Below, one piece after another: positions 1,487-46,537 of a stretch of DNA of 64,000 nucleotides. A program made the translations under genes and the position numbers. This DNA comes from a virus (lineage: Duplodnaviria; Heunggongvirae; Uroviricota; Caudoviricetes), in IMG/VR virus record IMGVR_UViG_3300028805_000051, positions 107,394-171,393 of that record; one strand, 5' to 3'. Position 1 is the stretch's first letter. Each line of letters starts with the position of its first letter. Below the pieces are notes generated by a model that was given only the letters and a program-made list of their open reading frames with translations, had not been told where the DNA came from and did no database searches.

Positions 1487-1879
1487 TTAATTAATACAAT
1501 ATTTTTTTGCAATTTCTCCTGCGTGTTCTCTCCAAATTTGCATATCATCATAACGTTGTTTATAATATGTATTTTCTGGGTCTAAACCAATATTACAAAG
1601 TATTGCAATTTGGTCTTCAGGAGAATATCTAAGTTTTACAATGTAATCTTTAAGATAAGCATAATCGAAACTTGTTACTGGATATGCAGTGCCATCAACT
1701 TCAATATAATCACTATCTCGATAATCTTCTGGCACTTCTAAATGGGGAGGATTAACTCTCTCCCCATTAATATAGTGCGTATACCCAAGTGTAAGTTCTT
1801 TACCAAAAAGAAGCTTATCTGCTTTTCTTAGCAGAAGTTTACCTTCATCTGCTGTAATTTTATTTCCGTCTATAATCAT
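1487..1879 (-). CDS. hypothetical virion-associated protein
   Basis: ORF track entry, 130 aa; same strand as and immediately downstream of the giant gene. Confidence 0.5.
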   Translation of the reverse strand: MIIDGNKITADEGKLLLRKADKLLFGKELTLGYTHYINGERVNPPHLEVPEDYRDSDYIEVDGTAYPVTSFDYAYLKDYIVKLRYSPEDQIAILCNIGLDPENTYYKQRYDDMQIWREHAGEIAKKYCIN

Positions 1880-1885
1880 AAGTCA

Positions 1886-4800: not shown

Positions 4801-7800
4801 TAAGAATTTCAAGCCAATCAAAAATAAATGTTTGCATATCAATACCAACATTACCTATTGTTAAACTCTTAAGATAAGTAGGAGTATATTCAAAATTAAC
4901 ATCAAATAAATTAGCTTGATTTCTAAGAGTAAGAGAAGTTAATGTTTCAGGAAGTGTAAGCTGTGTTAAATTATTTGTTTGAGGAAGAATAACTCCAGTT
5001 AAATTAGTACCAGCTGCAAGAAGTTTCTTAAGTTTAGACATATCTTCAAGAGAAGGAATAGATGTAAGAGCTGAAATATTTCTTATATCTAATTCTTGAA
5101 TATTAATTGGTAAACCACTAATTACGCTAGGTTGGAATAAAGGAGTTGCAGCACTTCCAAGTTTTAATTTAGTAAGACGTTTACCTGCACTAAAATCTAC
5201 AGTACCGGCAACAGAAGCATCACTCAAATCTCCAATATCGCTTAAATATTCTGCAAGTTCTGTAGTTGTTTGTACAGTATCTGTAGAAGTAACAGTAAAT
5301 TGTCTAGTTACACCTTTATCAGTTCTTTGCGAATAAATAGAGCTATTGCTTCTTCTATCATATCCATCAGGACCAGTAACAGTAGTACCATTACGTCTAA
5401 ACAGATATAATTTCATAGCAGGTATTTCATTATATTGAGAACTTGTTTCTTGACGAAATACTATACTAGAACCGGTTGCTTGATAATAGCTGCAATAAGA
5501 AGCAATATAAACTATACGATTTTTAATCCATTCATATTCACACTCAAGTTGACTACCAAGAGATTGAGTTAAAGGATCAGTATCAGTTCCTTTTTGTGAA
5601 GCAAAAATAGCTTCTTCATAAAGAAGTCTAGCAGTTTCATTATATGCTACAGCAGGTATGTATCTTTGAATACTAAACATATATTTTTCAAAAAATGCAA
5701 GAGGACTACCTGCATCATTAATCATAGCAGTAAGAATACTTCTCATCATACTTTCTAATTCCTCTCTATAGGCGTCTTCAAATGTATTATATAAAACATT
5801 TGTACCACCAGCCCAGAAAGCATTAGAGAAACCAGAACGACCATCAATATCATGTTCTTCAACCCAATAGAACTTTTGTTTTTGTCCTTGATTGTTGAAA
5901 GGATTTATTGTATCAAGGTCATCTTGAGCATGACGAATTATATTATCAACAGGGTCATAATAAGGATATGTATTTTTAGCTCTATTATCAGATGCTGCTA
6001 TGAATTTAAGGAACTGCATAAGAAATAGAGTATCATTTACATTCATATATTGAGAAATACCATTTCTAAATGCAGCAATTCTAGCAGTAAGAATAATACT
6101 TAATGCTTCACCTGGAGCAATAGTTCTTCCAGCAAGACTTAAGTTTAAATCAGTATCAACATTGTATTCATCATAAACTCCGTTAGTTTTAGTAATTCCA
6201 GCATTCACCCACTCGTCCGTAGGAAAATTATAACGATGAACTGTATAATTTTCAGCAGTTATAGAAGAATTTATAATAATGTATTGGTATGTTCTATCAG
6301 CATAATTAGGAGCATCAGGATTACTACCTTGACTGTTTTTAAGATTAAGAACACTACCATTCCACATTTTGATTCTAGTAGAATACTTATATACAAAATT
6401 AAAGGCATCTCTAAATTTATGAAGACTATCTTGATTTCCTAAATCATAATCCCAAGAACCTTCACCATTATACATATAATATTCTTCTTCTTCATTATAT
6501 GTAACTTCATCATCAAACCAAGGAGCTTGATTTAAAGTAAGAATAGGAGAGTGGTCAGAACCTTCAATCATAAGATAATTATGAAGAGGACTATCTTCAC
6601 TTTTTTCATATCCGAATGTAGCAGCATCACCTTTAGGAGAACCCCAAGTCATTAAGCAATAAAATACAGGATTCTCATCAGTTTCTCTTTGAACAAAGAA
6701 TAAGAAAGGTTTTTCTTCAATAGCAACACGAGGAAGTTCTGTATTTTCGGGTTTACCTGCAGCTATATTTCTAGCTTGAATTGTTCTTTGAATACCAGTT
6801 GGACCACAAACAGCCATATGCAAAACGTTAAACATTTCGCAAGCACCTGCTTTATGAGATTGAGGAGATGATGCATAATTAATTTTACCAACTTCTTTTT
6901 TCATCTTAGGAGAATTAGAAGTAAGTTGATAATAATTACCTTTAGTTACACCATTACCATCAGTCCATACAGAATCATCACCATGACTAAAAGTACCATT
7001 CCATTTATAATAGGTCTTGGCTGAAGTACCTTGACCTTTAACTTTCATATTTGTAATGGTACCACTATGTTCTAGATCACCTATAATATTAATATCAAGC
7101 CAGCCATTAAAAGTACTTTGATGTTCAAAATCTGGATAATCACCATGCCATACAAGAGTATTATACTTTTCTTTCGCTAATTCATAAGATATAACACCAC
7201 CATCAACTATATTGTTTGCAGTGATAAGTTGCATCTTTTCTTGTACATTAGAAAGAGAAGCAGTTCTATCATTAAGAATTTGAGCAGAAGAAAGTTGTCT
7301 ATCTTTATATAAACGGATACCATAAACATAAACATCAGCAGAAGTTCCACCAATCTTAATCTTATCAGTAGCCAAACCAAAAGAAGCAGTATTAGGATTA
7401 TATGCAAATTCTCTTCTAATACCACCATTTATGTACATTCTACAAAGATTAAGAATTCCGCCTTTAACACTAAGTCCTGGAATTATATTTATAGTAATAT
7501 GTACTCTTTCATTTTCACCCCATTCAATATCTTGGAAATATTTAGATTTATTAAGAGTAGAATACATATATCCGGCTTTAGCAAATAATTGTAATCCTAC
7601 AAATTCATTAAGTTCATCTGTATGACCAATTTCAAGAACAGGAGATTCTTCATCACTTATATTATTTGTTTTAATATCAAATTCCATTGTAAGACCAGAA
7701 CCTGATGTTAAAGTAGTATAAGGACTATAATCAATTTCAACAGTAGAACCAGCAAATAATTTAAGACATTTAACATTATCTTCATCTAATGTCCAACCAT

Positions 7801-9244
7801 CTTTTTCAAATACTACATTATTCCAATTAGCATTTATTTGTGTTGGTTCAGTTTGTACTTGAGTTTCATTTATGATAATTCGTTTGTTAGCATCTGCATT
7901 AGAACGCATAGATGGTAACATGATAAAATTAGCATTTGCTGTAGGAGCAAAACTATTACTGTTATCTATAGAAACGTTCTTAGAATATACTAATATATTG
8001 TTTATATATGCTTTAATGTTAGCATCGAATGTTACATCAGATAATTCAATACTCAAATAAGGAGCAAAATTATATTTTGTATTATTTAAAGCTCCACTAA
8101 CAGTATTATCAATCCAAACACTACTACCATCTAAACTTGTAATTACAAATCTAACATCAGTACCTATAAGACTATTTTTATTATAAACAGCCCAATCTAA
8201 TACAGGTTGACTAGTCCAGTTTACAAGAGGTAAATTAAGATTATTAACTACAAGAAGAATATCTGTTGCATCTACTGTAGTAGCTATAACATCAACTCTA
8301 ATCTTGTTTGTTTCTACAGCTAATGTGCCATTACTTCTTAACCAAGTTTCAACAGTAATAACCCCTGGTGTAGCCATCAAACCTGTAGCAATAGGATGAG
8401 GAATATCAAGTCTATAACTACTTTCTATATATTCTGTAGTTCCAATATTAATACTATTTTCAGGAATTACAACATTTCCATTAGCATCATAACCTTTATA
8501 ATAAATACTTTTGTTAGTACTACCTGAAATTTTATAATTAATACTCATATTTGCAGAACTCGCAACTAGAGGATTATAAATTTTAGGTTCTTGCCAATTA
8601 TCGCTACTTTTAATACCCATTTCTGCAACAGAAATATCAAAAATTAATTCAGTTGCTTGTGCAAAAGTTCGATTACCTGTTGCTCCTATCATTATCTACT
8701 AATCTCCGTTAATTAAACAATCTGATAAATCTATAATTTTCTAATTAGAAAAACGTTGTGCATAAAGAGTTCTTGTAAAATTTTGTAATGTTTTTACAAT
8801 AACCCATCCTCCATTATCAACTTTTCTTGATATAGTTATTGTACCATCCTCAGCATTATCTATCCAAGATTGTGAAGAAGCTTCATAGCTCTATGTGGTA
8901 AATGATAAACTAATAGATATGTTTTTATTTGGCGAAGCAATTTGTGGATTTGTATTGCTAAATAAATGAACTTCAGATGCTGTAGTTCCCCCACCTCCAC
9001 CACTAGGTAATTGCATTGAAATTACTGGCTAAATCGAAGAAGGATCTTTCAAATAAGCATCTGCATCTTCTTTAGTATAAAAAAATCTTAAAACTGCTGC
9101 ACTATCCATTCCAGTTCTTATAGCATATCCTAATTTAGTCTAAGCTATTTGATTTTCTTTTACTGCTTTAACTAATCTAACAAATTCTTCAGCAGTTAAT
9201 TCATCACCAGTTATTTTTTCTAATAAATCATCTATATTTGTCAT
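1886..9244 (-). CDS. giant virion/tail-fibre-like protein. Coordinates 1886-8692 are a clean 2268-aa ORF. A same-frame 184-codon N-terminal extension (8693-9244) contains 6 in-frame TAG codons.
   Basis: The 2268-aa ORF is rich in Asn/Thr/Ser with repetitive beta-type segments, typical of receptor-binding fibres. Upstream, the frame stays open through 6 TAG codons to an ATG at 9242-9244, and 9244-8692 is a multiple of 3. The preceding gene stops at 9251, only 6 nt away, so the extension is a plausible real start; a separate TAG-containing ORF would fit equally. Confidence 0.55.
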
Positions 9245-9250
9245 ATTTTA

Positions 9251-9739
9251 TTAATTTGAAAATGTTAATGGAAAAACAATTGGAAAAATATTTCCAATAT
9301 GGTCTGACTTTGCTACTAATGTGCTTCCAGCATAAATGTAAAGTAAATTGTTATTATTTGCTGTCACAAAATACCATTTAGTTTCAGATACAGTTCCTTC
9401 CTACTAACGCTGTTGAAATTCTCTTAAAGTTAATTTATCTACAGCTTTATCACCTTGTGGTCCAGTTGGACCTAATAAATTTTTAAATTTGAATATAAAA
9501 TCTAATAATGGTGATCCAGTTACATTTACTTCAACTTCAGGAGTACCTTGTTGATTTAATTCACTGTCATCCACTTCAACACTGTGTACTTTTGGTGTAA
9601 TTCTTTCTATATACTCAGCTCTAAATTTTGAGTTATCTGGAGTATAAATAGATGGATCGAATATATCCTAATTGTTTCCACTCTAATGACACTATTTTTT
9701 AGTATTTATAGGACTTAAATTTCTATCAAATGTTTTCAT
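9251..9739 (-). CDS. small structural protein with a collagen-like Gly-X-Y patch (LLGPTGPQGDKA); contains about 6 in-frame TAG
   Basis: Codon walk from the ATG (plus cat 9737-9739) to the TAA (plus tta 9251-9253); length 489 nt is a multiple of 3. Confidence 0.45.
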
Positions 9740-10041
9740 ATTTTAATATCTGGAATAATCCAAAATAAAACACTTTGTAAATATTCTATCTAACTATCAT
9801 TTATCATATTACTGCATTCTACAATCTGTTTTATTTTATTATTAAGTTGTTTTACTAAATTATCATTTAATCCTCTTGGATCAGAACTATCGTTTAAAGT
9901 TATGTCTCTTATAACTTCATAATATTCATCAATAAACATTAAATACAGTAATATACAAATTTCAATATTAGGAACATTTCCATTCTTTTCAGCATATTCA
10001 AAATTATTATTTAATGCTAATAAAATCTAATTACTTTCCAT
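9736..10041 (-). CDS. hypothetical late protein; contains 3 in-frame TAG
   Basis: Codon walk from an ATG candidate at 10039-10041 to the TGA at 9736-9738, which overlaps the next gene's start codon as ATGA. The stop is solid; the start is uncertain. Confidence 0.35.
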
Positions 10042-10603
10042 GACAACAACAATTATTTATATTACTTACAGAAGTACTGTAATTTTCAGTACAATTATTA
10101 AATAAAGATTTAGAATTATCAATTGTAGCTGACCACGAACATAATTCATTTAATCTCTGCCAATATTTTATTGCAGATTTTATATCAGATATGGATAATG
10201 CTAATTTAAAACCATAATAAGCTAATATTGGTAAAGCATTCTAAATAAATTTATCTGAATTTTTATCTATCTAAAAAATTCCAGCCTTTTCTGCTACTAA
10301 ATTAAGCAGATTATAATTATTATATATTGGAAATATAAAAGGATATGTATTATCTGCTAATTCTAAATATGCAAATAATAATTCATTTGTTGTAAAAGGA
10401 GAATTACTAATATCTAAATCTATATTAAATAGAGTTCCTTGCTCAGGTCTATTTATAATAAAACTAGACGCACTAGGTGTTGAAGAAGAAACAAAAGTAG
10501 TAATATTATCTATTAAAATTCTACTATGGTTATCATATAATATTTGTTCTTCTGCAGATGCAACTAGTCTAATGTGTGTTTCATCAATAATTTTAAATAT
10601 CAT
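10031..10603 (-). CDS. hypothetical late protein, 190 aa; contains several in-frame TAG
   Basis: The ORF track fragment 10271..10603 extends past its TAG to a TAA at 10031-10033 (in-frame codon walk); 573 nt. Confidence 0.45.
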
Positions 10604-12810
10604 ACCTGTCTTATTGTATCGTTATATGGATTACCATCGTGTAATTGTTCTAATTCTACTTTTGTACGTAATAAGTCATTTTCATTACGTCCTTCTTTGT
10701 AGGTTCTATCAGTTTGTGCTTCAAACCATTTAACTTCATAGTCTTTCTAATAACGATTAGCATCAATTTGAATCTTTTGCTCATTAAGAGATTCAATTTT
10801 ACTTTGAGCCTTTTGTAATTCTTGTTGTGCTTGTTTTAATTGTGAAGTTAATTCTTCAACCTACTGTTGTAATTTTCCAACTACATTCTATTCTTCTTTT
10901 TGTTTCTTTACAGACATTTTAGCCATATGTTTAGCTTCAGATAAACTTTTACAAGTCATTATATCAAATAATGTATCTAAAGCTATACCTCCACCTTTTA
11001 CTAATTCAGGAACAAGCATTTTTAATTGTTCTAAATCTTTTACAATTTCAGAGTTTGCTACAACGTGTATATCCCAATCTGAAGTTGTAAAATACTTTGG
11101 TAATGCTGTAAAAATTTTCTAGAATTTATCTCCTAGAATCAAAGTTCCAGTTAATCCATTTTTATAAACTATTTTTGCTAAATTTAAACAATCTGTAAGA
11201 ATTTCTTCCGTAAGTACATCCATATGAGAGTACCATTGTTTAGAAATAGTAAATGAATTAGATTGACCTATCTTTACATTTGTTACAGCATCTCTTGCTT
11301 CAATTCCATTAAGTCTTTCTCTAAATACTCCTGATATGGAAGAGCAAGTTTGTTCTACAGAATCAATAGCCATTTGAATTGCTTGAATTGCTTGAGCTTT
11401 AACTGTGTCATCAAATCCATTAAATATAGTATTCATAGGAGCCTGACCAGTTGCCATTCTTCCTTCTTGAGCTGTATCAAGTAAAGCAACTCCTTGTTTT
11501 TTATAAGCAAGCCATGCTTTTAATCTTTCTGGCCAAGTTACACCTAAATTTGTAGGAATTAAAGATTCGTCAATCCAATCTCCAGAAGTTCCACTATTGG
11601 CAATTAAATTATCTCTATAAAATATAAGTAAATCATATTTATCCTAGAGATTTGCACATGCAAGCACTAAAGAAAATGGTTCATTACTTCTATTATCAAA
11701 GTATACACCATTTACTGTTAATGCACAATAGTTTGGATTATCTACACTTCTAGTAACATCTTCCTTTATTCCTCTCAAAATATACATACTATCACCAATT
11801 TTTACTGTTTGATAAAGCTGCATTTTAAAATCTTTATCAGTTTCAATCCATTCCACTTCAAATACTGGAATTCTTTCATAATTAGGATTATATGCTTTAT
11901 GTTTTTGAGTTGGTTGACCAGGAGACACTACTGCTTCCTAATCTCCTATTATACCCAGTGATTGACAACCAGAAGTGTGCATTAATTTAATGTATCTTTC
12001 TGAGTAATCTAAAAATCCTTGCCAATCATCTTTTAATTTTTGTATATCATCCTAATTTAATTCTTTTCCATATTTGGCTAGAATCTATGTTCTAGTTAAC
12101 CATCTTCTTACAACAACTCTATATGAATCTTTAACGTAAGGAGAATTTGGATTTTTATCAATAAAAGTATTTAGTGGATCTAAAACTTCAATTCCAACAT
12201 TATTTCCTTCAGCAGTTGGAACAGTTTGATAAAAAGTATATCCAGATACTAAAAGGTCTTTAATTAATGTCCATAATTTAGTTTTAAAATCTGTCTATCT
12301 ATTCTGCATTATATACTAAAGTACATCTTGTGATGCTATTTCATACTGAGAAATAAAATTAGTATTTAAATCTTCAACTAAAGTGTCTAAAGTTTCTTTA
12401 ATATAAGGATCCTATAATTTATTTTGATCTCCAGATTCTATAAAAGATAGAATTTTATTCTATAAATGTTGCTAAACTGTATTATAGATTTCTCTTGTAA
12501 TATGTAATTCTTTTTCTCTAGTTATAGCACTTATAGTTCTCTAGTCTTTGCAGGAAATCTTAGGAAGTATAGGAGTTCCTAAATATTCTCCAATTAAAGC
12601 ATCTACATGTTTACGAATTAATGGAGTAAATTCAACTGAAGTTGGATTACCTATTCCGAAATTTTCTTCTAAGTATTTAAACTATTCAGCATCTCTTTTT
12701 CCATTATAGTAATTATATGCTTTTTGTAGTTCATCTTTATCGTAAACAAGTTCTGCTATAGCAAGATCAGTTTTTTGGATTAATTCATCATTACTTTTAT
12801 ATTTTGCCAT
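10600..12810 (-). CDS. portal-like protein, 736 aa; contains more than 15 in-frame TAG
   Basis: A continuous frame links the ORF track fragments 11644..11928 and 11119..11457 to an ATG at 12808-12810 and a TGA at 10600-10602, which forms an ATGA overlap with the next gene. Size and position (just upstream of further virion genes) and an N-terminus MAKYKSNDELIQK...KAYNYYNGKRD resemble portal proteins. This assignment is an inference. Confidence 0.4.
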
Positions 12811-12869
12811 AGTTAAATATTATTTATTTTAAAATAAATATTTTAATATTATTTCCCAAGTATTTTATA

Positions 12870-13235
12870 TTAACTATTATTATTTTCAATAATATAAGTA
12901 ATATCATCTTGCTGAACTCTATGTGTAGTATCATAATCACCTTTAATACTATCATTTACCGGTCCAGGGCAATTTTTACTTGTTCCAATTGTAAAAAACT
13001 AAATAGCACCTAAAGCAGATTCTTGCAATGCTTTCTTTAAATATTTTAAAAAAGTATCTCCTTCAGCTTCAATTGCTACTACAAAAGGAGTTTCATCACA
13101 AAGTAATGGAATAGATACTTTATAACCTACTGGATATAATTTATCTATAATTAAGTTTCCTGTATAGCAGCAATCATATAATTCATTTATTAACTATCTA
13201 ACTTTTTCATTAATACATTCTTTAGATAGTTCATG
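12870..13235 (-). CDS. hypothetical late protein, 121 aa; 2 in-frame TAG
   Basis: Frame-checked; 366 nt. Starts at an ATG at 13233-13235 and ends at a TAA at 12870-12872. Confidence 0.4.
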
Positions 13236-13259
13236 TTCAGTATATACAATATTATTCAT

Positions 13260-13472
13260 TATTCGTATCCCCACACTCTTGGATCACTAGAACGAGGGCC
13301 TTTTTCTGAAGTTTCACTACGAACATTCATTTGCTAAGGCTATCCAGGAATAACACCCCATCGTTTGTAACCTCTTTCATCAGTATAATAACCTACTTTT
13401 TGTTGTACAGTTGTTTCATCTTGTTTTATAACTTTTACAGGAACAATTGAACCAAGTTCTTCGTCAGCTAGT
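13260..13472 (-). CDS. small hypothetical protein, 70 aa; 2 in-frame TAG
   Basis: ATG at 13470-13472 to TAA at 13260-13262. Translation: MTELADEELGSIVPVKVIKQDETTVQQKVGYYTDERGYKRWGVIPG-Q-P-Q-QMNVRSETSEKGPRSSDPRVWGYE (Q marks a TAG codon). Confidence 0.35.
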
Positions 13473-13536
13473 TCTGTCATCACTTATGTTACCCTATAGG
13501 CTTTTTATCCTATAGTTCTTATGGTTTCCCATAAGG

Positions 13537-14451
13537 TCAGCGTACATTTTCATTCTAATTAACAGAATGTTCCGCACTCTTGGGAGGATTATTACTCTCA
13601 TTAACGTTCACCTCCTACGCGTTACGGTGCTCAGCGATTAACTGAGTTACCTCGGTATCAACATAATGATTAAACTTATTATATTTTCTCGACAATCTAA
13701 AAATTGAATCATCATAAAGAATATGATACAAAGCGTCAGTTACTTTTTTACTAGCAGTACATAATCTATACATCTAATCTCTTTTTATATAATTTATATT
13801 CATAGAAATTTCATATTTTTCTGCTAACCATTTTTGAAATTCCACTAATAATGTACTAGTTTTAGCCTCTATTTGAACACTTGTTCTTATTGTCCAATTA
13901 ATTTCTCTATTTGCTTTATTAGGTTCGTGTATATAATAAGTAAAACAACCATCTCCATCAAAATAACCTCTAAAGAAATGTCTTACTAATTCTTCTGGCA
14001 TTTTAGGAATATGTAATTCCTTGTAAGTTTTTCTTTCAACAATTCCTAATTTATGCAAATCTTCTATTAAAATTTTACTAGCAATATTAAGTCTTATACT
14101 TGATTTATTTTTTACTGTTTTTCCTCTAACAGTAGCTAAAGATTCAGTACCTGAAAATTCTTGAACATAAGCATTAGGACTTATCATTTTAAAATATTTA
14201 AATATTTCAGCATCCTTATCATTTATATGAATAGAAAGTGTATGTCTTTCATCATTAATAGATCCATCTGACATTATAAATCCTAATAAATAAGCTTGTA
14301 ATTCAGTTTTAATTTCTTTAAAGAAATCATGTCTTATTGCTCTTTTGCTAGTTCCATTTATATATAATGGACAATTTTCTTTTAAATAATTTAATTCTTC
14401 AATTCTTGTCATACGATAATTCGTTTTAAGTTTAATCATATTAGCCTTCAC
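13537..14451 (-). CDS. LAGLIDADG homing endonuclease (two LAGLIDADG motifs). It reads through the TAG at 13774 and a second TAG, ending at a TGA at 13537-13539.
   Basis: Motifs LLGFIMSDGSI and FRGYFDGDGCF. After the annotated TAG at 13774 the frame continues for 78 codons of plausible sequence (MYRLCTASKKVTDALYHILYDD...) to a TGA. Total 915 nt. Confidence 0.65.
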
Positions 14452-14466
14452 CGATTTTGCGGAATT

Positions 14467-16596
14467 TTACATGGGCATGTAAAAAAGTCTACCCATACTA
14501 GCTATAATATCAAAATGAGTTTTATTTTCATCTGTGTATCTATTGAGTTCATCAAGCATATCTTCAAACCAAATTGTATGTCCAAAGTCTTCAACAAAAT
14601 TTGCAATTAAATCAGTTTGATGGTCAATAATTACTGTTGTAGCTGGAGTACCTACAGTTCTCCTTCCAATTTTTGTTGGGTCAGGATATGTAGCTCGAGG
14701 TCTTGCCATGAAATAATTATAGAATCCTTTTTCTCTAGCCCAAGTTAACATAGATACACGAGTTGCTTCAATGTTAATTGCAGCTTTATAATACTATGCT
14801 AAGCACATAGCTATTTTATAAGCTTCACGAATATCATCTGGTCTATCTTTATAATATGCAACATACTATGGTTCTCCTAAACCAAATGCACGCTTTTTAA
14901 TCGTTATGCAAAATTTAGATGGATTATCAGTATTAACTGAAGTATCTTTTGCTCCAATGTCAATAGAGTCAATACCCGCTATATATAAATTATGCATTTC
15001 TGAATAATCTCTTTCTTCATTTTCCTGAAGACTTTCCTTATATAAATTTGTCCAAACTGGATGCTCTAATATGTGTATCTTACCAGTTAGACTTTCATCC
15101 CATCTAAACCCTATAATATTTTCTTTAGTATGTACTCCATTCTTATATACATATGCTAAATTTCCATGATGTATTTCTGGAGCAATTTTATGTAATCTAA
15201 TATTTGCTAATTGCTCTGCTACGATAATTTTATTAAATTTATTTTCTCCTTCTAATGAGAAAGCTTCTTCAGCAGTAAAACAATATTCAGCACAATAAAT
15301 TATAAGAGCTTTTGGATCTTTTGCTTTTTTATCTCGCTAAGTATTATAATAAGCTTTACCTTTTTCAGGGTCAGTCCATCCTCTTTCATCAGTACAATCT
15401 GGTCTATTTACAATAGCATAAGCAGGAATAAAATAAGCAGTTGATACTTCTTCACCAGTAGGTGTATGATTATGGTGATATGGGAGAATATCATAAACAT
15501 CAGTATTATAATACATTTTACGTAATCCTTCAAGAGCTGCACCAGCATCACCACCTGTTCCTCCTCCTAATTTTATACCGAATCTAGCACCCTAAATTCC
15601 TACAAGAGCATCACCTTGAATAAAAGCTTTAGTTGAATTAGGCCAAGAACCCAACTCTTCATAAACTAATAAGTCAGTACGATCACCTCTAATTTTATTA
15701 GGTTTATCAGCAAGAATACCTTCAATCTAAGACATCCAACCAGTTTCAATTTTCTGACCATTTATAATTTTATATACAGATGCTCTCTTTTTAGTATAAG
15801 TATCTGACACTTGTCTTAATTTGAAGAAACCTCCATCGGTATAATTATTTAGGAAGGCAAGAGCATTCCATACTTTATCTAAAGTTTTATTTAAATAATT
15901 CTCTAACTAAGCTGTAAGGACATTAACTGAATTTCTATAACTATTATAAGCATTAGCTAAAATAGCAGCATTAATTTCAGAATATCCAATACCTCTAGCT
16001 TTCATTAACACAGCATTAACTCTTAATCTTCGAGCTAATTCAACATAATGAAAGAATTCATATTGCCCTACAAAGAATTTAGGGAAGTCGTATAAACGAG
16101 ATGAACCTGCTTTCTTTGCAGAAGTCAGGTCCATCAATTGATAAAAATTAAGAAAGAAATAATGGTCTCCTGTAATAGTATATCCATTAACAGTCATTCC
16201 ATCTTGACATCTTCTATACTGTTCATCCCAGAAATCATTGTATGCTTTCGTGTTTCTAGGATACTAACAATAATGACCTGTCCTTAAGAAAACCTCTCTT
16301 GTCTCTGTAAACCATTCAGGTTTAAAGTCTAAACCTTGTGTTTCATTAATCGGTTTATAACCTGTTATTTCATAAGACTTTCTAGCATCAAAATATGTAA
16401 CAACATCATTAACAGAAAAATCCCATCCACCATTACGTTCTTTTATGACTTCCTATTTAATTTGAGCAATTTCTTCCTACTATAATTTTTCTTCTTTTTG
16501 TTTAACCTCCTAAACTATGGTTTGTATTTCATCAGGAAGCTAAACAAGAGGAGTTTTTCTAGGTCTACCTCTTTTTCTTTTAACTTCTTCTGCCAT
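14467..16596 (-). CDS. terL: terminase large subunit, 709 aa, with about 12 in-frame TAG codons
   Basis: A continuous frame runs from the ATG (plus cat 16594-16596) to the TAA (plus tta 14467-14469); 2130 nt is a multiple of 3. The first in-frame TAG is at plus cta 16540-16542. The minus-strand translation has an ATPase-like N-terminal half (FVGQYEFFHYVELARRL, KARGIGYSE, a Walker-B-like LLVYEELGSWPN) and a nuclease-like C-terminal half (IAGIDSIDIG). The function call rests on overall resemblance. Confidence 0.55.
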
Positions 16597-16598
16597 AA

Positions 16599-17183
16599 TT
16601 AAAAATTAGGAGTATAACCATCTTCATAACCACCACGTAAAGTAGAAGATTCAGCTACTTCTTTCTTAACCATAGATTCAAGAGTTGTAAGTTCATCTTG
16701 AACCTTAGATAATGAAGAAATTTCAGCCATAATATCTTTTACTTTAAATATTGGTTTTCCTGTTTGTAAATCTCTTTCTTCAGGATCTATGTTATGAAAA
16801 TAATCAATAAATTTGTCAACAGTCTCTTGTGCAGCATGTAGTAAACGAATAGATCGAGTTGATTCCTAAATAGACTTAAATTTTCGACAAGCAGCTCTAA
16901 ATTCAGGATTATTAAACTCTTCATCTGTCATATGTGCATCTTGTAAAGAAAGCATATGTCGTTCTTGTTCACTAAAATCTGCATAAGGACTTTGCCAATC
17001 TAAAGCTAAATATATATATGTAAATTCTCTAAAAGCTCTTAATTTATATTTTCCGTCTTTATCCTCTTTACAAATATTTCGTTCATCTTTCATCAACTCA
17101 TTAAACTCTTTCACAAGTAATATTTCATGATGATTGAGTTCCACAGTACCATTAGCATTATTATATTGAAATATTTTTATCAT
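16599..17183 (-). CDS. hypothetical protein immediately upstream of terL (small-terminase candidate by position only); 1 in-frame TAG
   Basis: ORF track fragment 16866..17183 extended through a TAG to a TAA at 16599-16601; 585 nt. It has a coiled-coil-like C-terminus. Confidence 0.4.
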
Positions 17184-17932
17184 TTTGGAATTAATTTTAA
17201 TTTTAAACCTAATCTTCCAAAAGAAATGTTACTTCCTGATATTCCCCAAGGTCTTACTTCTGATTTAAAAGGTTTTGTAAAATCTAAAGTTTGTTTTACA
17301 TTGCTTGGATTTGAAGTAGTCATCATAGGTTTATTTATTGAAGTAGACCCAGTTATTGGGTTTAATTCAGTATTAAATGAAGTAATGGATGGAATATTAG
17401 GATTATTAATTGAACTTATAGATAAAGGATCTTTTTTCTGAGTTCTATTCCAATAATTTACGAGTAAATTATCATTATCCTATCCAAAACTTTGATTTGT
17501 TAATACATCATTATTTATTTTCTCTGAATCTTTTTTAGGAACATCTACTTCAACTTCAGGAACTTCTTCTTTTGGTTTATTAGATAATCTATTAAAAAAT
17601 CTTGGAAATCCTTGTCTACCAAGTGCTCCCATTACATTTATTATAGCTGGAGTTGGATCAATTTCATCTCTATCTTTCGGCTATTTAAATAAATTATATA
17701 AACCTTGAGCTGCTAAAGATCCAACTGAACTGTTAGGGTCCCACTATTGAGCTGCATGTAAAGCAGCAGAACGAATACTTGCTGTTTCACCTGCCGATGT
17801 GGCATAATCATTCTGGTCTTTTAAATCCTCTTTGAATTTTTCTTCCCATTTTTTAGCAGCCCAATAGTCCATAGCTCCATCTAACATAGTTTGTCCAGCT
17901 TGAGCTAAATTCATCCAACCTAGTGGTTCCAT
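17180..17932 (-). CDS. hypothetical late protein, about 250 aa; about 3 in-frame TAG
   Basis: The TGA at 17180-17182 overlaps the downstream ATG as ATGA. The gene is in the same frame as ORF track fragment 17744..17932, and an upstream in-frame TAA lies at 17972-17974. Confidence 0.4.
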
Positions 17933-17936
17933 AGTA

Positions 17937-19484
17937 TTATTTTTTACACTTTCTGCCGTTCTTAAATTTGGTTACTAATGGAGATTCTCCACCATTTTCC
18001 ATTTTCTTACCTTTGCAGGCTTCTTCTATTTTCTGACATTTTTTGCAAACTTTTCCACCAATCTTAAACATCTTCATTTCATAACCTTCTGGACATTTGC
18101 CTTGTAATTTTCTAAAATATTCAAGTTTAGCTCCATATTCAGCTTTAACTGATAATGCTTGCTAAATTCCATTTAAAGCTTTTGATGCTAATTCAGCCAT
18201 TTCCGGATCAGCATCTTTTTGTTTGCTAATTTTTGTAGCTAATGTAATAAAATTACCAAGTTGTTCTTGAGTTGTAATACCTAATATCTTAGATAAAGCT
18301 TCCATATCTCCAGTTGCAGCAGTTTCAAATGCAGATTTTAAAATTTCTCTTTGTTTTGCAGAATTATCTCTATTTACTTGTTGTTGGTTAACTTGACCAC
18401 CCATTTGAAAATATTTCATTTTACCACCTTTTTTAAATGTGTATTTATTACTTTGATATTTATAAGAAGATACCACATTTCCTTGTGCATCATAGACTTT
18501 ACCATCTGATCCAGCATAATATTTTGTACCATTAGCGTCTTGAATTACAAAGAAATCTCCAACAAAATTATCTTTAGAAAGACTTTTTCCATATAAAGCT
18601 CCGGCAGGATCAACAAATAATTTATCTGTTTCACCACCAGGAGACCAATAATTATCTATATGTTTTAAACCAAAAGCTGTCTATACTGCTCTTGCTCTGG
18701 CTGGATTAGTAATGCCTCTAGCTCCCCATTTTATTTTATCCCAATTGTCAACATTCTCAGATATTGCAGGGAGATCTGTTGGTAAAGTTGGATTAACTGT
18801 GTCAGGTTTATATAAATCAGATATAGCTTTAATCTAATCTGAAGTTAAATCATTAGCAGCAAGACTCTATAAATAACCATTAAAATTATCAGAATATCCT
18901 TGATTTGCTAAATAATTTTGTATTCCAACATTAGTAAAATTTCTATCAGTACCCAACAAGTCATTTAGAGTATTATATCTTTCATTTGCATATAAAGATT
19001 CAAGTAAAGCTTTATATGCTGGAGTATAAGAATCAGAATTATCAAAAGAATAATTATATGTTCTTTTTTCTTCAGGAGTTTCTACCTTTGATTTAGGGGT
19101 CACTTTAATATATGGATTATTAGTAGCCAACATTTTTTTACGAATATTGGCTTGTTCATCTGTCCAACCTTCTGGAGTAGAAACACCATATTTACGAGCA
19201 TATCTTTGATTATGTCTTTCTTCTCTTATTTTATTAAACCAATCTTCATCTGTGTACCCAGTATCTGTTGGCTTTCCTTGATCATCAGTTTGAAATGCAT
19301 CATTAAATCGATACAAGTTACCATTTTGACCTTGATATAAGTAACCGTTATCTCTAAAATACTATAATTTTTTTCGGCGATTAAATAATCCCAGACGAAG
19401 GTCTGAGAAATCTAAAACATTTGAACCATCAGTTGCTGGTGCAACTATGTTTTTACCAGCCTAAAAATATTTTATTTGTCTCAT
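17937..19484 (-). CDS. hypothetical virion protein, 515 aa; about 5 in-frame TAG
   Basis: ATG (plus cat 19482-19484) to TAA (plus tta 17937-17939); 1548 nt. Joins ORF track fragments 18867..19316 and 18162..18476. The C-terminus has a Cys-rich segment, CPEGYEMKMFKIGGKVCKKCQKIEEAC. Confidence 0.45.
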
Positions 19485-19705
19485 TGTTTTACAAGTTCTA
19501 AATCTTTTGTATTAAATACATCTTCTTGAATATATCCATCAGATGTAAACCATCTGCAACGTATTCCTCTTAATATTCCTTCCTTGTCTTCATCATGTTT
19601 AATCATACTGTTTACTTTTTTAACAACAAGCATGATTGGTTTATTTGGAATATTCTATCGAATAGTTACTAAATCACCTGGTGAAAAGAAAACTTTTTCT
19701 TCCAT
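19481..19705 (-). CDS. small hypothetical protein, 74 aa; 1 in-frame TAG
   Basis: ATG at 19703-19705. Its TGA overlaps the next gene's ATG (ATGA at 19481-19484). Confidence 0.35.
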
Positions 19706-19706
19706 A

Positions 19707-20294
19707 TTAGTCTTTTTTAAATCTTTCATTTAAATCATCATTAATTACACAAATTGCTCTAGTTTCATTAACTAGTCTAAATCCAAAGTTATAGAAAGGA
19801 ATTACTACTTCTGACATTACAGTCCACATAATAGTGTCTCCACTCTTTAACCATTTACATTCAGGACCCGCTTCGATAACTACACCTACTTTAATTACCT
19901 GTTCTGCTTCTTCATATTCTCCTGAATCACTATTTTTATATTCTGGAATCATTCCACCAAGATCTGTAATAAGGCCAGAACTAGAAACTGTTACTTTTTG
20001 GAATGGATTCTCAGTAAATGGACGTACAATAACATAATTACCAATAGGCATTATCTGTACTTCATTTAAATTTTTAGCATATTCATCAGCAGCTTCTTGT
20101 AATTTTTTCTCATGGTTAGCAAATTTATCTTCTATTTTCTGAACACTTTCATTCCATTTTTCACGCTTCATTGCATCAATGTGTTCATCTAATGATTTGT
20201 CATTCATATTAACAAATACTGCATCAGAATCAACTTTACTAATTTCTCTTGCAATTTTTTCTTGCATACTTAATTCATTTCTCATGTTTCCCAT
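19707..20294 (-). CDS. protein with a C-terminal GroES-like (Hsp10 / T4 gp31-like) co-chaperonin domain
   Basis: The C-terminal segment NYVIVRPFTENPFQKVTVSSSGLITDLG...KVGVVIEAGPECKWLKSGDTIMW resembles a GroES-like fold. No TAG in this ORF. Confidence 0.45.
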   Translation of the reverse strand: MGNMRNELSMQEKIAREISKVDSDAVFVNMNDKSLDEHIDAMKREKWNESVQKIEDKFANHEKKLQEAADEYAKNLNEVQIMPIGNYVIVRPFTENPFQKVTVSSSGLITDLGGMIPEYKNSDSGEYEEAEQVIKVGVVIEAGPECKWLKSGDTIMWTVMSEVVIPFYNFGFRLVNETRAICVINDDLNERFKKD

Positions 20295-20317
20295 AATTCA
20301 TTAATTTTAAAAATTCA

Positions 20318-20596
20318 TTACCATTTCCCAGCTATACATTTAGCATTAGGTAATGTGGTTTTAGCTAGGAGTCGACAACCACATCCCTGAACATAACCCT
20401 CTAAAGGTTTTAATGATACTTTATCTGTATCTGGATCTATCCAAAGTTTTCTGTTGCAGGTTCCTCCCCATTCAATAGAATAGATAGGACATTTCTTGCA
20501 TATCTTCATTCTATATTCTGATATATCTTCATTCAAACCAACTAATTCGTTGATATGTCCTTTAACAATTTGTCCTACAGGAAGTTTCATATACAT
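20318..20596 (-). CDS. small Cys-rich (zinc-binding-like) protein
   Basis: ORF track entry; CKKCP...CN...CGC motifs. Confidence 0.45.
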   Translation of the reverse strand: MYMKLPVGQIVKGHINELVGLNEDISEYRMKICKKCPIYSIEWGGTCNRKLWIDPDTDKVSLKPLEGYVQGCGCRLLAKTTLPNAKCIAGKW

Positions 20597-20678
20597 ATAA
20601 TTTAAAATAACCCTTTAAAAAGAGAGTGAATGTTTTTATCTTATAAAGACCAAAAATATTTTTAACAAAATTTAAGGG

Positions 20679-21590
20679 TTAATATTCAATTGGTTTTCTT
20701 TTAGCACGTTGAGCTTCTTTAATTAGCTCTTTCTTATAAAAAGCTAACATTCTTTCAACTTCCGTTTTTAAATAATCACAATGATATAAAGTATTATTTC
20801 CATCATGATCATAATGATTTAATATTAAATCTTTAATAACAAATTCTGGATTAATTTTTTGAAGCATCCAAGCATAAGTTGATAACTGAAGTTGATAGTG
20901 ATTAAAGTTACAATCATCTAAATTATTTAATGGATACAGCATTTTAACTGTAGATTTTGTGTTTGTATTAAAACCACCTTTTAAATCTAATTTCTTATTA
21001 GTTTTATGGTCAATTATGATTATCTCATTTCCATTTTTTACTAAACAATCAATTTGTCCAGCAATATTCAATATACCATCTGGAGAAGTTCTAGAAATTA
21101 AGTATTCTGGATAAACTCCGTAAGGTAAATCAAGTTCAGTGTAATTTCGTCTACACTCAAACTTACCTCCTAAACCAAATTTCTTCAGTTCAACATTTTT
21201 ACCTCCATTATAAAACTCATTTTCTAATTGAGCATGAATCTTAGTACCTCTTTCACAAGATTTACGATTTTCTTCATCCCAAGCATCTAAAATGTCTTGT
21301 TGAGTTTTATTGAAGTCATTTTCAGAAATATCATATACATCTAAAATAGATTTATTGAACCTTTTTGTATTTAATAGAGATTTTTTCTCAATTTTCCAAG
21401 AATCTGCTGGAATTAATTTTTCTAATGCTTTATAAGCACTCCAAAAATCTCTATCAAAAGGTTGTCCAAACTTTTCAATTAAAGTAGTAACTGAAATAAA
21501 TCTTTTTGATTCATCATTTACATTCCAGTATTTGTGTTTTTCTTCATTAAACGCAATACTACCATTTTGTTTATCAATTTGCATACTCAT
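20679..21590 (-). CDS. PD-(D/E)XK-family nuclease-like protein
   Basis: ISVTTLIEKF and IIIDHKTNKK motifs resemble PD-(D/E)XK motifs II and III. It is the first gene of the minus-strand operon. Confidence 0.45.
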   Translation of the reverse strand: MSMQIDKQNGSIAFNEEKHKYWNVNDESKRFISVTTLIEKFGQPFDRDFWSAYKALEKLIPADSWKIEKKSLLNTKRFNKSILDVYDISENDFNKTQQDILDAWDEENRKSCERGTKIHAQLENEFYNGGKNVELKKFGLGGKFECRRNYTELDLPYGVYPEYLISRTSPDGILNIAGQIDCLVKNGNEIIIIDHKTNKKLDLKGGFNTNTKSTVKMLYPLNNLDDCNFNHYQLQLSTYAWMLQKINPEFVIKDLILNHYDHDGNNTLYHCDYLKTEVERMLAFYKKELIKEAQRAKRKPIEY

Positions 21591-21619
21591 ATATCATTTG
21601 ATTATTTTTACTATTGTCT

Positions 21620-21838
21620 TTAGTCTTCTTTATCTCTTCCTATTTTGTATTTGTAGGAATAATCTACTCCTATTAAAGCTCCTACAAATGTAAGTGTTTC
21701 GCCATATGCGACTAGCACTGAGTTATCTATTACACCTGTCGGAGGTACAATAAATGAAGCTATCAATAATCCAATACCAAAAATTATAAGTAGTACTGAT
21801 AGCCCTAGTTGTATTGATAATTTATTGAACCTTTTCAC
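21620..21838 (-). CDS. small membrane protein
   Basis: ORF track entry; two hydrophobic helices. Confidence 0.4.
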   Translation of the reverse strand: MKRFNKLSIQLGLSVLLIIFGIGLLIASFIVPPTGVIDNSVLVAYGETLTFVGALIGVDYSYKYKIGRDKED

Positions 21839-22029
21839 CTTTTAACGTTATTAAATAATTCTAATTAAACAAATAAATACAATTCGCAGTAAGCCGAATC
21901 TAATAAACTTGTTCTAACCTTTATCTATTTTGAATTTACTAAAATTAACTGTATTATTAGTTAAAACAAAATTAAAGGATATAAAGAATGAAAGTTTAGA
22001 TAAATTTAAACAATTTCAATGATGATGTT

Positions 22030-23673: not shown

Positions 23674-23688
23674 TAAATATAAACTTAT

Positions 23689-25350: not shown

Positions 25351-25355
25351 CTAAA

Positions 25356-25396
25356 TAAAAGCCCATTCTCTTTAATTAGGGTATGGGCTTTTTAAA
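25356..25396 (+). terminator. rho-independent terminator
   Basis: Hairpin aaagcccat...atgggcttt followed by a T-run. Confidence 0.55.
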
Positions 25397-25407
25397 TATA
25401 ATAAATT

Positions 25408-46533: not shown

Positions 46534-46537
46534 TATT

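What the first reader, a model, noticed from the sequence alone, without database searches (positions are those of the whole stretch)
13537..14451. Free-standing LAGLIDADG homing endonuclease downstream of terL, itself decoded with TAG as sense
The endonuclease ORF reads through the TAG at 13774 and a second TAG before a TGA, so this mobile-element gene shares the phage's recoding. It is a homing-endonuclease insertion next to terL, a classic hotspot.
Basis: partly seen in the sequence, partly recalled or inferred. Interest (0 to 1): 0.5.

Follow-up and report, generated by a model that had tools for sequence, protein, structure and literature searches.

The report
Intron-borne homing endonuclease splitting terL
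The endonuclease gene is real and does need TAG read as an amino acid, but it is not a free-standing gene next to terL: it sits inside a 1010-base self-splicing group I intron that interrupts the terminase gene of a TAG-recoded crAss-like gut phage, an arrangement already described for such phages.

Summary
Observation partly confirmed. A minus-strand LAGLIDADG ORF runs to the TGA at 13537. It has three in-frame TAGs (13774, 13615, 13555), not two, and its start is probably the ATG at 14412, not 14451.

Interpretation partly right. TAG at 13774 must be read as sense. Pfam and PHROG matches, 488 homologues and an AlphaFold model all continue across it, and codons after it show pN/pS of 0.10-0.26. 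TAG is Gln in this phage, which carries a tRNA(CUA).

"Free-standing, downstream of terL" is wrong. terL is split into 16596..14491 and 13480..13259. Relatives 88-89% identical have one uninterrupted 777-aa terL across ATGGGT|ATGAC.

The 1010 nt between (14490..13481) is a group I intron:
- U.G 5' splice site in P1, and a 3'-terminal G.
- P3-P9.1 with the P3/P7 pseudoknot: 96% of cells paired, 26 of 63 pairs with compensatory changes.
- A guide sequence that co-varies with the exon in ten relatives.

The ORF lies in the P5 loop and runs into the core. TAG 13615 is the family's ancestral stop, at the P7/P7.1 junction. Recoding would add 26 codons, ending at an invariant TGA in P7's 3' strand.

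This is a new member of a known kind (Yutin 2021; Borges 2021).

The parts
14491..16596 (-). terL exon 1 (702 codons, 12 in-frame TAG), ending ...AGT ATG GGT
   Evidence: The spliced protein matches PHROG 6681 (terminase large subunit) at 1.3e-71 in one stretch, residues 67-730, across the junction at 702|703.
13481..14490 (-). Group I intron, 1010 nt (AGAC...AAGUG); absent from intron-less relatives
   Evidence: blastn against intron-less L088 and L089 breaks at 14486-14500 and resumes exactly at 13480. The junction ATGGGT|ATGAC is contiguous in L088. Covariation supports the fold, and P1/P10 fit. A 1-nt ambiguity in the boundary (A...G or G...A) is resolved by the group I rule of U before the 5' splice site and G at the intron's 3' end.
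13259..13480 (-). terL exon 2 (73 codons plus stop), MTELADEELGS...
   Evidence: tblastn of exon 1 C-terminus plus this ORF hits relatives as one piece. Relatives read ...FDIVAAMGMAELGDQEL... without a break. Full-length 777-780-aa homologues cover 100% of the spliced query.
14491..14496 (-). P1 5' strand (last exon nucleotides AUGGGU; the final U forms the U.G pair at the splice site)
14469..14476 (-). Internal guide sequence GCCCAUGU (P1 3' strand). CAU just upstream (14477-14479) can pair with the first AUG of exon 2 (P10).
   Evidence: the guide sequence changes with the exon in ten related introns.
14467..14469 (-). TAA in the exon-1 frame, 7 codons into the intron. It creates the false 'end of terL'.
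14458..14464 (-). P3 5' strand UUCCGCA
14450..14454 (-). P4 5' strand UCGGU
14430..14441 (-). P5 5' strand AUAUGAUUAAAC. The ORF is looped out of P5.
   Evidence: An ORF-less relative closes P5 with a short loop (L005 ~95-365).
13537..14412 (-). LAGLIDADG homing endonuclease CDS: 291 codons plus TGA if all TAGs are read as Gln, or 265 codons if TAG 13615 stops translation
14260..14289 (-). LAGLIDADG motif 1 (LLGFIMSDGS; D49 and G50 invariant)
13945..13974 (-). LAGLIDADG motif 2 (FRGYFDGDGC; R148-G155 invariant)
13774..13776 (-). TAG 1, codon 213: a sense codon inside the second LAGLIDADG domain
   Evidence: Homologues have D, Q or N at this position. L086 also has TAG and L087 has GAT. In the model of P0001, a strand and three helices follow it with pLDDT mostly 89-96.
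13663..13675 (-). P5 3' strand GUUUAAUCAUUAU. The Pfam and PHROG domain matches end at about this point.
13652..13656 (-). P4 3' strand ACCGA
13626..13651 (-). P6/P6a hairpin
   Evidence: 2 pairs with compensatory changes, 100% of cells paired.
13616..13621 (-). P7 5' strand CGCGUA. It pairs with 13538-13544, forming a pseudoknot with P3.
   Evidence: 2 compensatory pairs, 100% of cells paired.
13615..13617 (-). TAG 2, codon 266: the ancestral stop of the endonuclease family. U and A lie in P7 and G opens P7.1.
   Evidence: Many homologues end at ...HRNA. The codon is UAG in 8 of 11 introns and CAG in 3, the latter with a compensating change in P7's 3' strand.
13583..13615 (-). P7.1 hairpin between P7 and P3' (a feature of subgroup IA)
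   Evidence: 4 of 5 pairs have compensatory changes.
13570..13576 (-). P3 3' strand UGCGGAA
13551..13569 (-). P8 hairpin. It contains TAG 3 (13555-13557, codon 286).
13537..13544 (-). P7 3' strand UACGC(U)G plus A. It contains the terminating TGA (13537-13539); GCUGA is invariant in all 11 introns.
13518..13535 (-). P9 hairpin with a GAAA loop
   Evidence: 5 of 7 pairs compensatory.
13494..13515 (-). P9.1 hairpin
   Evidence: 5 of 7 pairs compensatory.
13481..13481 (-). 3'-terminal G of the intron (omega-G)
   Evidence: Ten of the 11 aligned introns show the intron-final G in one alignment column, just before exon 2; the eleventh (L018) ends in G by its own exon junction but is offset in the alignment.
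30117..30188 (-). Phage-encoded suppressor tRNA, anticodon CUA. It would decode the TAGs of the endonuclease and the late genes.

Best explanation
The window comes from a TAG-to-Gln recoded, crAss-like gut phage. Its large-terminase gene is interrupted, 73 codons before its end, by a mobile group I intron of 1010 nt (14490..13481, minus strand).

The intron RNA folds into P1-P10 with a P3/P7 pseudoknot and a P7.1 hairpin, which points to subgroup IA. It should excise itself by the standard two-step guanosine-initiated transesterification. That would ligate ...AUGGGU to AUGACA... and restore a 775-aa TerL. This is inferred from the structure, not shown.

A double-motif LAGLIDADG homing endonuclease (14412..13537) is encoded in the P5 loop, and its 3' end runs into the ribozyme core. 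The enzyme presumably cuts intron-less terL alleles at about ...TATGGGT^ATGAC..., so that repair copies the intron in (homing). This too is inferred.

Codon 213 is TAG and must be read as an amino acid, most likely Gln via the phage's tRNA(CUA), to make the last strand and helices of the second domain.

The next TAG (13615) is the family's original stop codon, held in place because it is part of the P7/P7.1 junction. In this recoded phage it would be read through, adding a roughly 26-residue, probably disordered tail. Translation would then end at an invariant UGA in the P7 3' strand.
For: Split terL:
- terL C-terminus plus the downstream 74-aa ORF hit three relatives as one tblastn piece. Their translations run straight through the junction.
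- Homologues at 88-89% identity are 777-780 aa and cover 100% of the spliced query.
- DNA of the intron-less L088 and L089 is contiguous across ATGGGT|ATGAC.
- The PHROG terminase match crosses the junction in one stretch.

Group I fold:
- 63 hand-assigned pairs in P3-P9.1 are 96.2% paired over 11 introns, against 36-43% when the partners are slid.
- 26 pairs carry changes on both sides, and 0 of 500 shuffles reach the observed values.
- P1 always ends in U.G, and the guide sequence tracks the exon in 10 introns at four or more terL sites. P10 covaries as well.
- Ten of the 11 aligned introns show the 3'-terminal G in one alignment column; the eleventh (L018) is offset there but ends in G by its exon junction.
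- ORF-less copies of the same ribozyme exist.
- The same core splits the DNA polymerase of Alicyclobacillus phage MMB025, a standard-code isolate.

Endonuclease:
- Pfam PF14528 and PF00961 match above their cut-offs, and PHROG 4645 matches at 3e-39.
- Both motifs are invariant.
- The AlphaFold model of the 91%-identical P0001 has pLDDT 87.6. Its best PDB matches are all double-motif LAGLIDADG enzymes or maturases.

TAG as sense:
- Domain matches and all listed homologues span codon 213.
- pN/pS after TAG 1 is 0.10 and 0.26, against 0.21 before it.
- TAG aligns with CAA or CAG in 31 of 64 changed codons.
- The phage carries a tRNA(CUA).

Ancestral stop: homologues either end at ...HRNA or continue with 'Q'. 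Codons 246-291 show almost no substitutions of any kind, which indicates an RNA-level constraint.
Against: - Rfam's group I model does not recognise the intron: nothing in an 11-kb scan, and 10.5 bits against a gathering score of 50 on the 3' half. It also misses the ORF-less relatives.
- The structure was threaded by hand from the window sequence, which by itself favours it over the slid controls.
- No transcript data show splicing, and cleavage activity is untested.
- pN/pS after TAG 1 rests on only 14-22 substitutions.
- The subgroup assignment (IA) rests on P7.1 alone, and P7.2 was not identified.
- The amino acid inserted at TAG is inferred from codon alignments. Whether the ribosome really runs through TAG 2 and TAG 3 is not known.
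Confidence: 0.92

Rival explanations
1. One reading: a free-standing LAGLIDADG endonuclease gene lies in the intergenic space after a complete terL. The small ORF at 13262..13483 is a separate gene.
For: Under a stop-to-stop reading, terL appears to end at TAA 14467-14469, and gene callers annotate three separate genes in relatives.
Against: Intron-less relatives have one continuous terL covering both pieces. The flanks of the ORF form a covarying group I core. The guide sequence matches the exon.
Confidence: 0.03
2. The endonuclease is a decaying pseudogene. TAG 13774 is a nonsense mutation, and only the ribozyme is maintained.
For: Most homologues have no TAG before the ancestral stop. The consensus residue at that position is Asp, not Gln.
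Against: - TAG is a frequent sense codon in neighbouring late genes, and a tRNA(CUA) is present.
- The same TAG is kept in L086.
- The 32 codons after it evolve with pN/pS 0.10-0.26, with 10 synonymous against 4-12 nonsynonymous changes.
- There are no frameshifts, and the catalytic motifs are invariant.
Confidence: 0.07
3. The insert is an intein or a group II intron rather than a group I intron.
For: Some sources name homologues 'Intein splicing domain'. Some terL homologues really do carry inteins (P0174 and P0199 with PF05203/PF05204).
Against: - A TAA separates terL from the ORF, and the ORF is in a different frame from exon 2.
- Pfam finds no Hint domain.
- The insert's length is not a multiple of 3 (1010 nt).
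- There is no reverse transcriptase. The covarying helices and the U.G / terminal-G boundaries are those of group I.
Confidence: 0.01
4. The protein now works mainly as a maturase, that is, a splicing cofactor for its own intron, rather than as a DNA endonuclease.
For: The best structural match is the bI3 LAGLIDADG maturase, and I-AniI, which is both endonuclease and maturase, is also near the top. The ORF overlaps the ribozyme core.
Against: Both catalytic acidic residues are invariant. The intron is present in some close relatives and absent in others, and occupies several terL sites, which implies recent DNA-level mobility. The two roles do not exclude each other.
Confidence: 0.1

Closest known systems
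Group I introns with homing-endonuclease ORFs in essential genes of crAss-like phages (Delta/Zeta groups; Yutin et al. 2021, PMC7886860)
   Same: Human-gut crAss-like phages with stop-codon reassignment in late genes, suppressor tRNAs, many introns and inteins, a LAGLIDADG intron ORF, and intron ORFs that themselves contain reassigned stop codons. All named relatives of this terL are crAss-like phages. Relatives' contigs of 150-180 kb fit the 145-192 kb large-genome family described in that paper, which I take to be Zeta.
   Different: The example given there for recoded intron ORFs is TGA in PolB. terL in the Delta group is reported to carry inteins. That paper recognised introns by protein domains and did not work out the RNA structure. 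Placing this window in the Zeta group is inferred, not tested.
Recoded intron endonuclease of Agate phages, and terminases fragmented by mobile introns (Borges et al., bioRxiv 10.1101/2021.08.26.457843)
   Same: A group I intron endonuclease with in-frame reassigned stop codons, proposed to delay endonuclease production until the suppressor is active. The paper also notes terL fragmentation by mobile introns.
   Different: That case is TGA-to-Trp and the intron sits in an early gene. Here it is TAG-to-Gln and the intron sits in a late gene (terL).
Group I introns splitting terL in Jug phages (PMC12880540)
   Same: terL of gut Bacteroides phages is split by group I introns, and splicing was confirmed there by metatranscriptome reads.
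   Different: Those introns are mostly about 206 nt and lack ORFs, in 360-402 kb genomes. Only 17 LAGLIDADG genes are reported among many HNH genes.
Subgroup IA phage introns (T4 td/nrdB/sunY, Twort, S. thermophilus phage introns; review PMC3984707)
   Same: Phage protein-coding host gene, a P7.1 insertion between P7 and P3', an ORF looped out of a peripheral helix, and ORF/core overlap (and my own knowledge of the T4 and Twort introns). The core shares 70-79% nucleotide identity with sequences in Streptococcus, Staphylococcus, Clostridium and Alicyclobacillus phages.
   Different: According to the review, phage introns usually carry GIY-YIG, HNH, PD-(D/E)xK or EDxHD enzymes, and LAGLIDADG is the less usual passenger. 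P2 is absent in this copy. Rfam RF00028 does not detect it.
Monomeric double-motif LAGLIDADG enzymes (bI3 maturase 2ab5, I-Tsp061I 2dch, I-AniI 1p8k, I-OnuI family)
   Same: Fold match at Foldseek probability 1.00, E 5e-9 to 1e-7, with two LAGLIDADG helices.
   Different: Only 11-21% identity and TM about 0.5. There is an extra N-terminal helix and a C-terminal helical extension encoded by ribozyme-core sequence.

Membership tests
Group I intron | The 5' splice site follows a U that forms a U.G wobble in P1 with an internal guide sequence | tested here: met
   AUGGGU|...GCCCAU, extendable to 8 bp. The guide sequence changes with the exon in 10 related introns.
Group I intron | The intron ends in G (omega-G), and P10 pairs the guide region with the 3' exon | tested here: met
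   ...AAGUG|AUGACA. Ten of the 11 aligned introns show the terminal G in one alignment column; L018 is offset in the alignment but ends in G by its exon junction. P10 is 3-7 bp in 9 of 10 introns and covaries, for example ACUAAA/UUUAGU in L039.
Group I intron | Conserved core P3-P9 with the P3/P7 pseudoknot, supported by covariation | tested here: met
   96.2% of 692 cells are paired, 26 of 63 pairs carry double changes, 0 of 500 shuffles reach the observed values, and slid controls give 36-43%.
Group I intron | Removal restores an uninterrupted, conserved host ORF, and intron-less alleles exist | tested here: met
Group I intron | Reaches the gathering score of Rfam RF00028 (Intron_gpI) | tested here: not met
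   No hit in 9000-20000. 10.5 bits, E = 4, on 13518-13716 against a cut-off of 50. ORF-less relatives are also missed. The model could not be given an ORF-deleted construct, and subgroup-specific models were not available.
Group I intron | Guanosine-dependent self-splicing | not testable with these tools
   Needs an in-vitro transcript or RNA-seq.
Group I intron, subgroup IA | Extra P7.1/P7.2 pairings inserted between P7 and P3' | tested here: inconclusive
   One covarying hairpin (P7.1, 13583-13615; 4 of 5 pairs compensatory) sits exactly there. A separate P7.2 was not identified. The position rule comes from my own knowledge; the review only lists P7.1 and P7.2 as class features.
LAGLIDADG homing endonuclease (double-motif monomer) | Pfam LAGLIDADG models matched above their curated cut-offs | tested here: met
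   PF14528 at 33.5 bits (cut-off 22.5) and PF00961 at 25.0 bits (cut-off 23.1).
LAGLIDADG homing endonuclease (double-motif monomer) | Two LAGLIDADG helices, each with a conserved acidic residue | tested here: met
   LLGFIMSDGS with D49 and G50 invariant; RGYFDGDG with R148-G155 invariant in 33 sequences.
LAGLIDADG homing endonuclease (double-motif monomer) | Two alpha-beta-beta-alpha-beta-beta-alpha domains | tested here: met
   AlphaFold model of the 91%-identical P0001 (pLDDT 87.6). The top 50 PDB matches are all proteins of the LAGLIDADG fold. The window protein itself could not be submitted.
LAGLIDADG homing endonuclease (double-motif monomer) | Site-specific cleavage of the intron-less allele | not testable with these tools
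   The candidate target is the L088 or L089 sequence around ATGGGT^ATGAC.
Free-standing homing endonuclease | Gene lies between host genes, not inside an intron or intein | tested here: not met
   It lies in the P5 loop of an intron inside terL.
Intein | In-frame fusion with the host protein, and Hint splicing blocks | tested here: not met
   TAA at 14467-14469, a frame different from exon 2, a 1010-nt insert, and no Hint domain.
TAG-to-Gln recoded phage (genetic code 15) | In-frame TAGs in conserved genes, a tRNA(CUA), and TAG aligned with Gln codons in relatives | tested here: met
   12-15 TAGs in terL and portal. tRNA(CUA) present. TAG aligns with CAA 24 times and CAG 7 times among 64 changed codons. 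TAGs are concentrated in the late block 549-29560.

The most novel reading that the evidence does not exclude
Changing the genetic code has remodelled the overlap between the intron's ORF and its ribozyme. The endonuclease's ancestral UAG stop cannot easily mutate, because U and A pair in P7 and G opens P7.1. In a TAG-to-Gln phage the stop is abolished, and ribosomes would run 26 codons further, through P7.1, P3', P8 and J8/7, to a UGA fixed in the P7 3' strand.

Translating the endonuclease would then unfold the catalytic core (P3, P7, P8) of that transcript. Suppressor-tRNA level, endonuclease synthesis and terL splicing would be mechanistically coupled, making a timing switch specific to recoded phages.
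Probability: 0.15. Interest if true: 0.55.

Novelty: new member of a known kind. Interest (0 to 1): 0.33.

Why it matters
For annotation, terL here must be written as a two-exon join (16596..14491, 13480..13259). The 'short terL', the '74-aa hypothetical protein' and the 'free-standing endonuclease' called in relatives are artefacts of ignoring both the intron and the code.

For biology, this is a clean, structure-resolved example of two known oddities of crAss-like gut phages occurring in one gene: stop-codon reassignment and intron infestation.

The ribozyme family is shared with standard-code phages of Firmicutes and is missed by Rfam's generic model, so its alignment could seed a better model.

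The locked-in UAG stop in P7 gives a concrete test of how a code change affects a selfish element nested in an essential late gene.

Tried and rejected
- **Rfam scans.** The 11-kb neighbourhood, the 3' core alone and seven related loci gave no usable hit for this intron family. The only strong hit was an unrelated group I intron in L005 (5542-5750). I therefore relied on hand-threading plus covariation.
- **ATG at 14439 or GTG at 14451 as the start codon.** I first read the ATG at 14439 as a start codon sequestered in P5. I rejected this because that frame is closed upstream of MTRIEEL in L086 and L087. The P5 5' strand is non-coding.
- **Inferring the TAG amino acid from distant standard-code terL genes.** L002 and L003 were uninformative: Q appeared at 3 of 12 aligned positions. 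I replaced this with codon alignments to close relatives.
- **First pN/pS run.** It used a start coordinate off by 2 nt and gave meaningless values near 1. It was corrected.
- **Intein and group II readings.** Both were considered and rejected, as set out under the rival explanations.
- **More copies of this intron.** A search of the 64-kb window found only 13489-13659.
Full report
**1. What is at the coordinates**

The minus strand of 13537-14451 carries an open frame with the motifs LLGFIMSDGS and RGYFDGDGC. Pfam scores it as LAGLIDADG_3 (5.3e-8) and LAGLIDADG_1 (3.6e-5), both above their cut-offs. The LAGLIDADG_1 match spans residues 158-259 of the ATG-14439 reading, which crosses the TAG at 13774.

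The frame holds three in-frame TAGs, at 13774-6, 13615-7 and 13555-7, before the TGA at 13537-9.

The window as a whole only makes sense with TAG read as sense. Under a TAA/TGA-only reading, ORFs of at least 100 aa rise from about 14,000 to about 21,000 residues in total. terL and portal then become continuous, with 12 and 15 in-frame TAGs respectively. A tRNA with anticodon CUA lies at 30117..30188.

**2. The key correction: terL is split**

The apparent terL (14470..16605) ends ...FDIIASMGRLFYMPM followed by TAA. A tblastn of its C-terminus joined to the downstream 74-aa ORF (13262..13483) hit three gut-phage records, each as a single piece. Their translations read ...FDIVAAMGMAELGDQEL... 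without interruption.

A search with the spliced protein (775 aa) found 2955 homologues. The four best are 777-780 aa, 88-89% identical, and cover 100% of the query.

The DNA of two intron-less relatives (L088, L089) aligns to the window up to 14486-14500 and resumes exactly at 13480. L088 reads ...ATAGCAGCTATGGGT|ATGACTGAATTAGCTGA..., and both relatives are themselves TAG-recoded, with 13 and 8 TAGs in terL. PHROG 6681 (terminase large subunit, 1.3e-71) matches residues 67-730 of the spliced protein in one stretch across the junction at 702|703.

The insert is therefore 14490..13481, 1010 nt. The TAA at 14467-9 lies inside it.

**3. The insert is a group I intron**

The sequence shows these features directly:
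- The 5' exon ends in U.
- AUGGGU pairs with GCCCAU 14 nt downstream, giving the U.G wobble at the splice site.
- The insert ends in G.
- UUCCGCA, upstream of the ORF, pairs with UGCGGAA about 880 nt away (P3).
- UCGGU/ACCGA forms P4, and AUAUGAUUAAAC/GUUUAAUCAUUAU forms P5, so the ORF is the P5 loop.
- These are followed by P6/P6a, P7 (CGCGUA/UACGC-U-G, pseudoknotted with P3), a hairpin between P7 and P3' (P7.1), P8, P9 with a GAAA loop, and P9.1.

I collected related loci through the endonuclease. The 3' core is 78-92% identical in DNA even where the proteins are only about 50% identical.

On an alignment of 11 ORF-deleted introns, the 63 pairs gave 96.2% paired cells, against 36-43% when the partners were slid. 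Twenty-six pairs carry changes on both sides, and 0 of 500 shuffles reached the observed values. Every helix except P4 shows compensatory changes.

P1 and P10 were checked separately. In ten introns the guide sequence follows the exon: AUGGGU/GCCCAU, UUCGGGU/GCCCGAA, GCUCGGU/GCCGAGC, AGUCGGU/GCCGACU and so on. P10 covaries too, for example ACUAAA/UUUAGU. These introns occupy at least four positions in terL, which is what a mobile ribozyme with a reprogrammable guide would produce.

ORF-less copies of the same backbone exist (L005 ~95-365). There are also copies with the endonuclease ORF upstream of P3 instead of in P5 (L001, L018).

Rfam does not recognise the family. That membership criterion is recorded as not met. 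I attribute it to the large ORF and to the generic model's weakness on this subgroup, but this explanation is an inference.

**4. The endonuclease and its TAGs**

There are 488 homologues at E <= 1e-3. The 120 best listed are mostly 259-302 aa and cover 74-97% of the query (mostly 90% or more). All 22 homologues aligned run past the position of TAG 13774.

*Start.* L086 (91% identical at protein level) and L087 (82%) carry the same intron at the same terL site. In both, the frame upstream of MTRIEEL is closed, so the start is the ATG at 14412.

*TAG 1 (codon 213).* Homologues have D, Q or N here, and the consensus is KRDDMYRL. L086 also has TAG, and L087 has GAT.
- After TAG 1, up to the P5 3' strand, pN/pS is 0.10 against L086 and 0.26 against L087. 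Before TAG 1 it is 0.21.
- An AlphaFold model of P0001 (pLDDT 87.6) places a strand (214-219) and three helices after this codon, with pLDDT mostly 89-96.
- Its PDB neighbours are all proteins of the LAGLIDADG fold, mostly double-motif enzymes or maturases.
- TAG 1 is therefore a sense codon needed for the fold.
- TAG most likely means Gln. Against L088 and L089, TAG pairs with CAA 24 times and CAG 7 times out of 64 changed codons.

*TAG 2 (codon 266).* Many homologues stop exactly here (...HRNA), while others continue with 'Q'. Its U and A are P7 pairs and its G is the first pair of P7.1. Eight of the 11 introns have UAG. Three have CAG, with the compensating A-to-G change in P7's 3' strand.

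*Codons 246-291.* These show almost no substitutions of any kind: 0-1 synonymous changes in about 27 synonymous sites. That is the signature of RNA constraint, not protein constraint. The tail from residue 271 onward is predicted to be disordered.

*TGA.* The terminating TGA lies in the invariant GCUGA of the P7 3' strand.

Most family members have no TAG before the ancestral stop. The exceptions are the window, L086 and L006. This copy has therefore started to accumulate sense TAGs while living in a recoded genome.

**5. Context**
- TAG-containing ORFs are confined to the late block 549-29560. The region from 30 to 64 kb, which holds the tRNAs, is nearly TAG-free.
- All named relatives of terL are crAss-like phages, at 27-30% identity.
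- Relatives' contigs are 150-180 kb. [quoted passage not shown] 2021; the paper's text singles out the Zeta group for the highest intron and intein density.

**6. What was already known**
- Yutin et al. already report group I introns and inteins in core genes of crAss-like phages, a LAGLIDADG intron ORF, and intron ORFs containing reassigned stops.
- Borges et al. report a recoded group I intron endonuclease in Agate phages and terminases fragmented by mobile introns.
- Jug phages have terL split by group I introns, with splicing confirmed by RNA reads.
- The ribozyme backbone also occurs in standard-code phages of Firmicutes. It splits the DNA polymerase of Alicyclobacillus phage MMB025 around a LAGLIDADG ORF, and in Clostridium phages it follows an HNH ORF.

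**7. Verdict**

The 'free-standing, next to terL' reading is wrong. The 'decoded with TAG as sense' reading is right for TAG 1.

The feature is a new member of a known kind. One modestly new detail is that the family's ancestral stop is locked inside P7, so recoding extends the ORF across the catalytic core. Whether that has any regulatory consequence is open.

Noticed in passing
window 30117..30188 (-) and 38632..62920 (+): 27 tRNA genes are present, including a suppressor tRNA(CUA). ARAGORN also reports an odd tRNA with a four-base anticodon 'gctg' at 38632..38720.
   Followed up: no
window 549..29560 versus 30000..64000: In-frame TAGs are concentrated in the structural (late) block, at up to 15 per gene. 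The tRNA-rich half is almost TAG-free. This fits the published 'late genes recoded' pattern.
   Followed up: partly
window 1886..9244 (-): A 2452-codon ORF with 6 TAGs lies downstream of portal. By position it is probably a tail or fibre protein. It was not analysed.
   Followed up: no
L091 (Alicyclobacillus phage MMB025, PV686781 63750-68930): The same ribozyme core (78.6% identity over 176 nt), with a LAGLIDADG 'endonuclease' in the P5 loop, splits the DNA polymerase into CDS0121 and CDS0118. The intron is not annotated in the record.
   Followed up: partly
L092 (Clostridium phage phiCP39-O, NC_011318 ~5630-5830) and related C. perfringens phages: The same core follows an HNH endonuclease ORF: one ribozyme backbone with a different endonuclease family as passenger. 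Sixty-three S. thermophilus phage records also hit the P8-P9.1 part.
   Followed up: partly
L001 (MT835539) 539-784 and 2100-2320; L005 ~95-365 and 5542-5750: L001's terL holds two introns of this family, one with its LAGLIDADG ORF upstream of P3. L005 has an ORF-less copy at the KPRGV| site of terL, plus an unrelated group I intron that Rfam does detect at 63.5 bits.
   Followed up: partly
terL homologues P0174 (1204 aa) and P0199 (1131 aa): Some terL homologues are about 400 aa longer and carry Hom_end/Hint Pfam domains. In those phages terL is invaded by inteins rather than introns.
   Followed up: no
L006 (IMGVR_UViG_3300045988_073527) endonuclease tail; L019 and L020: L006 has a TAG inside the P6-encoding stretch (TEVTqLIAEY). 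L019 and L020 endonuclease frames are cut by in-frame TGA, which could mean decay or TGA recoding.
   Followed up: no
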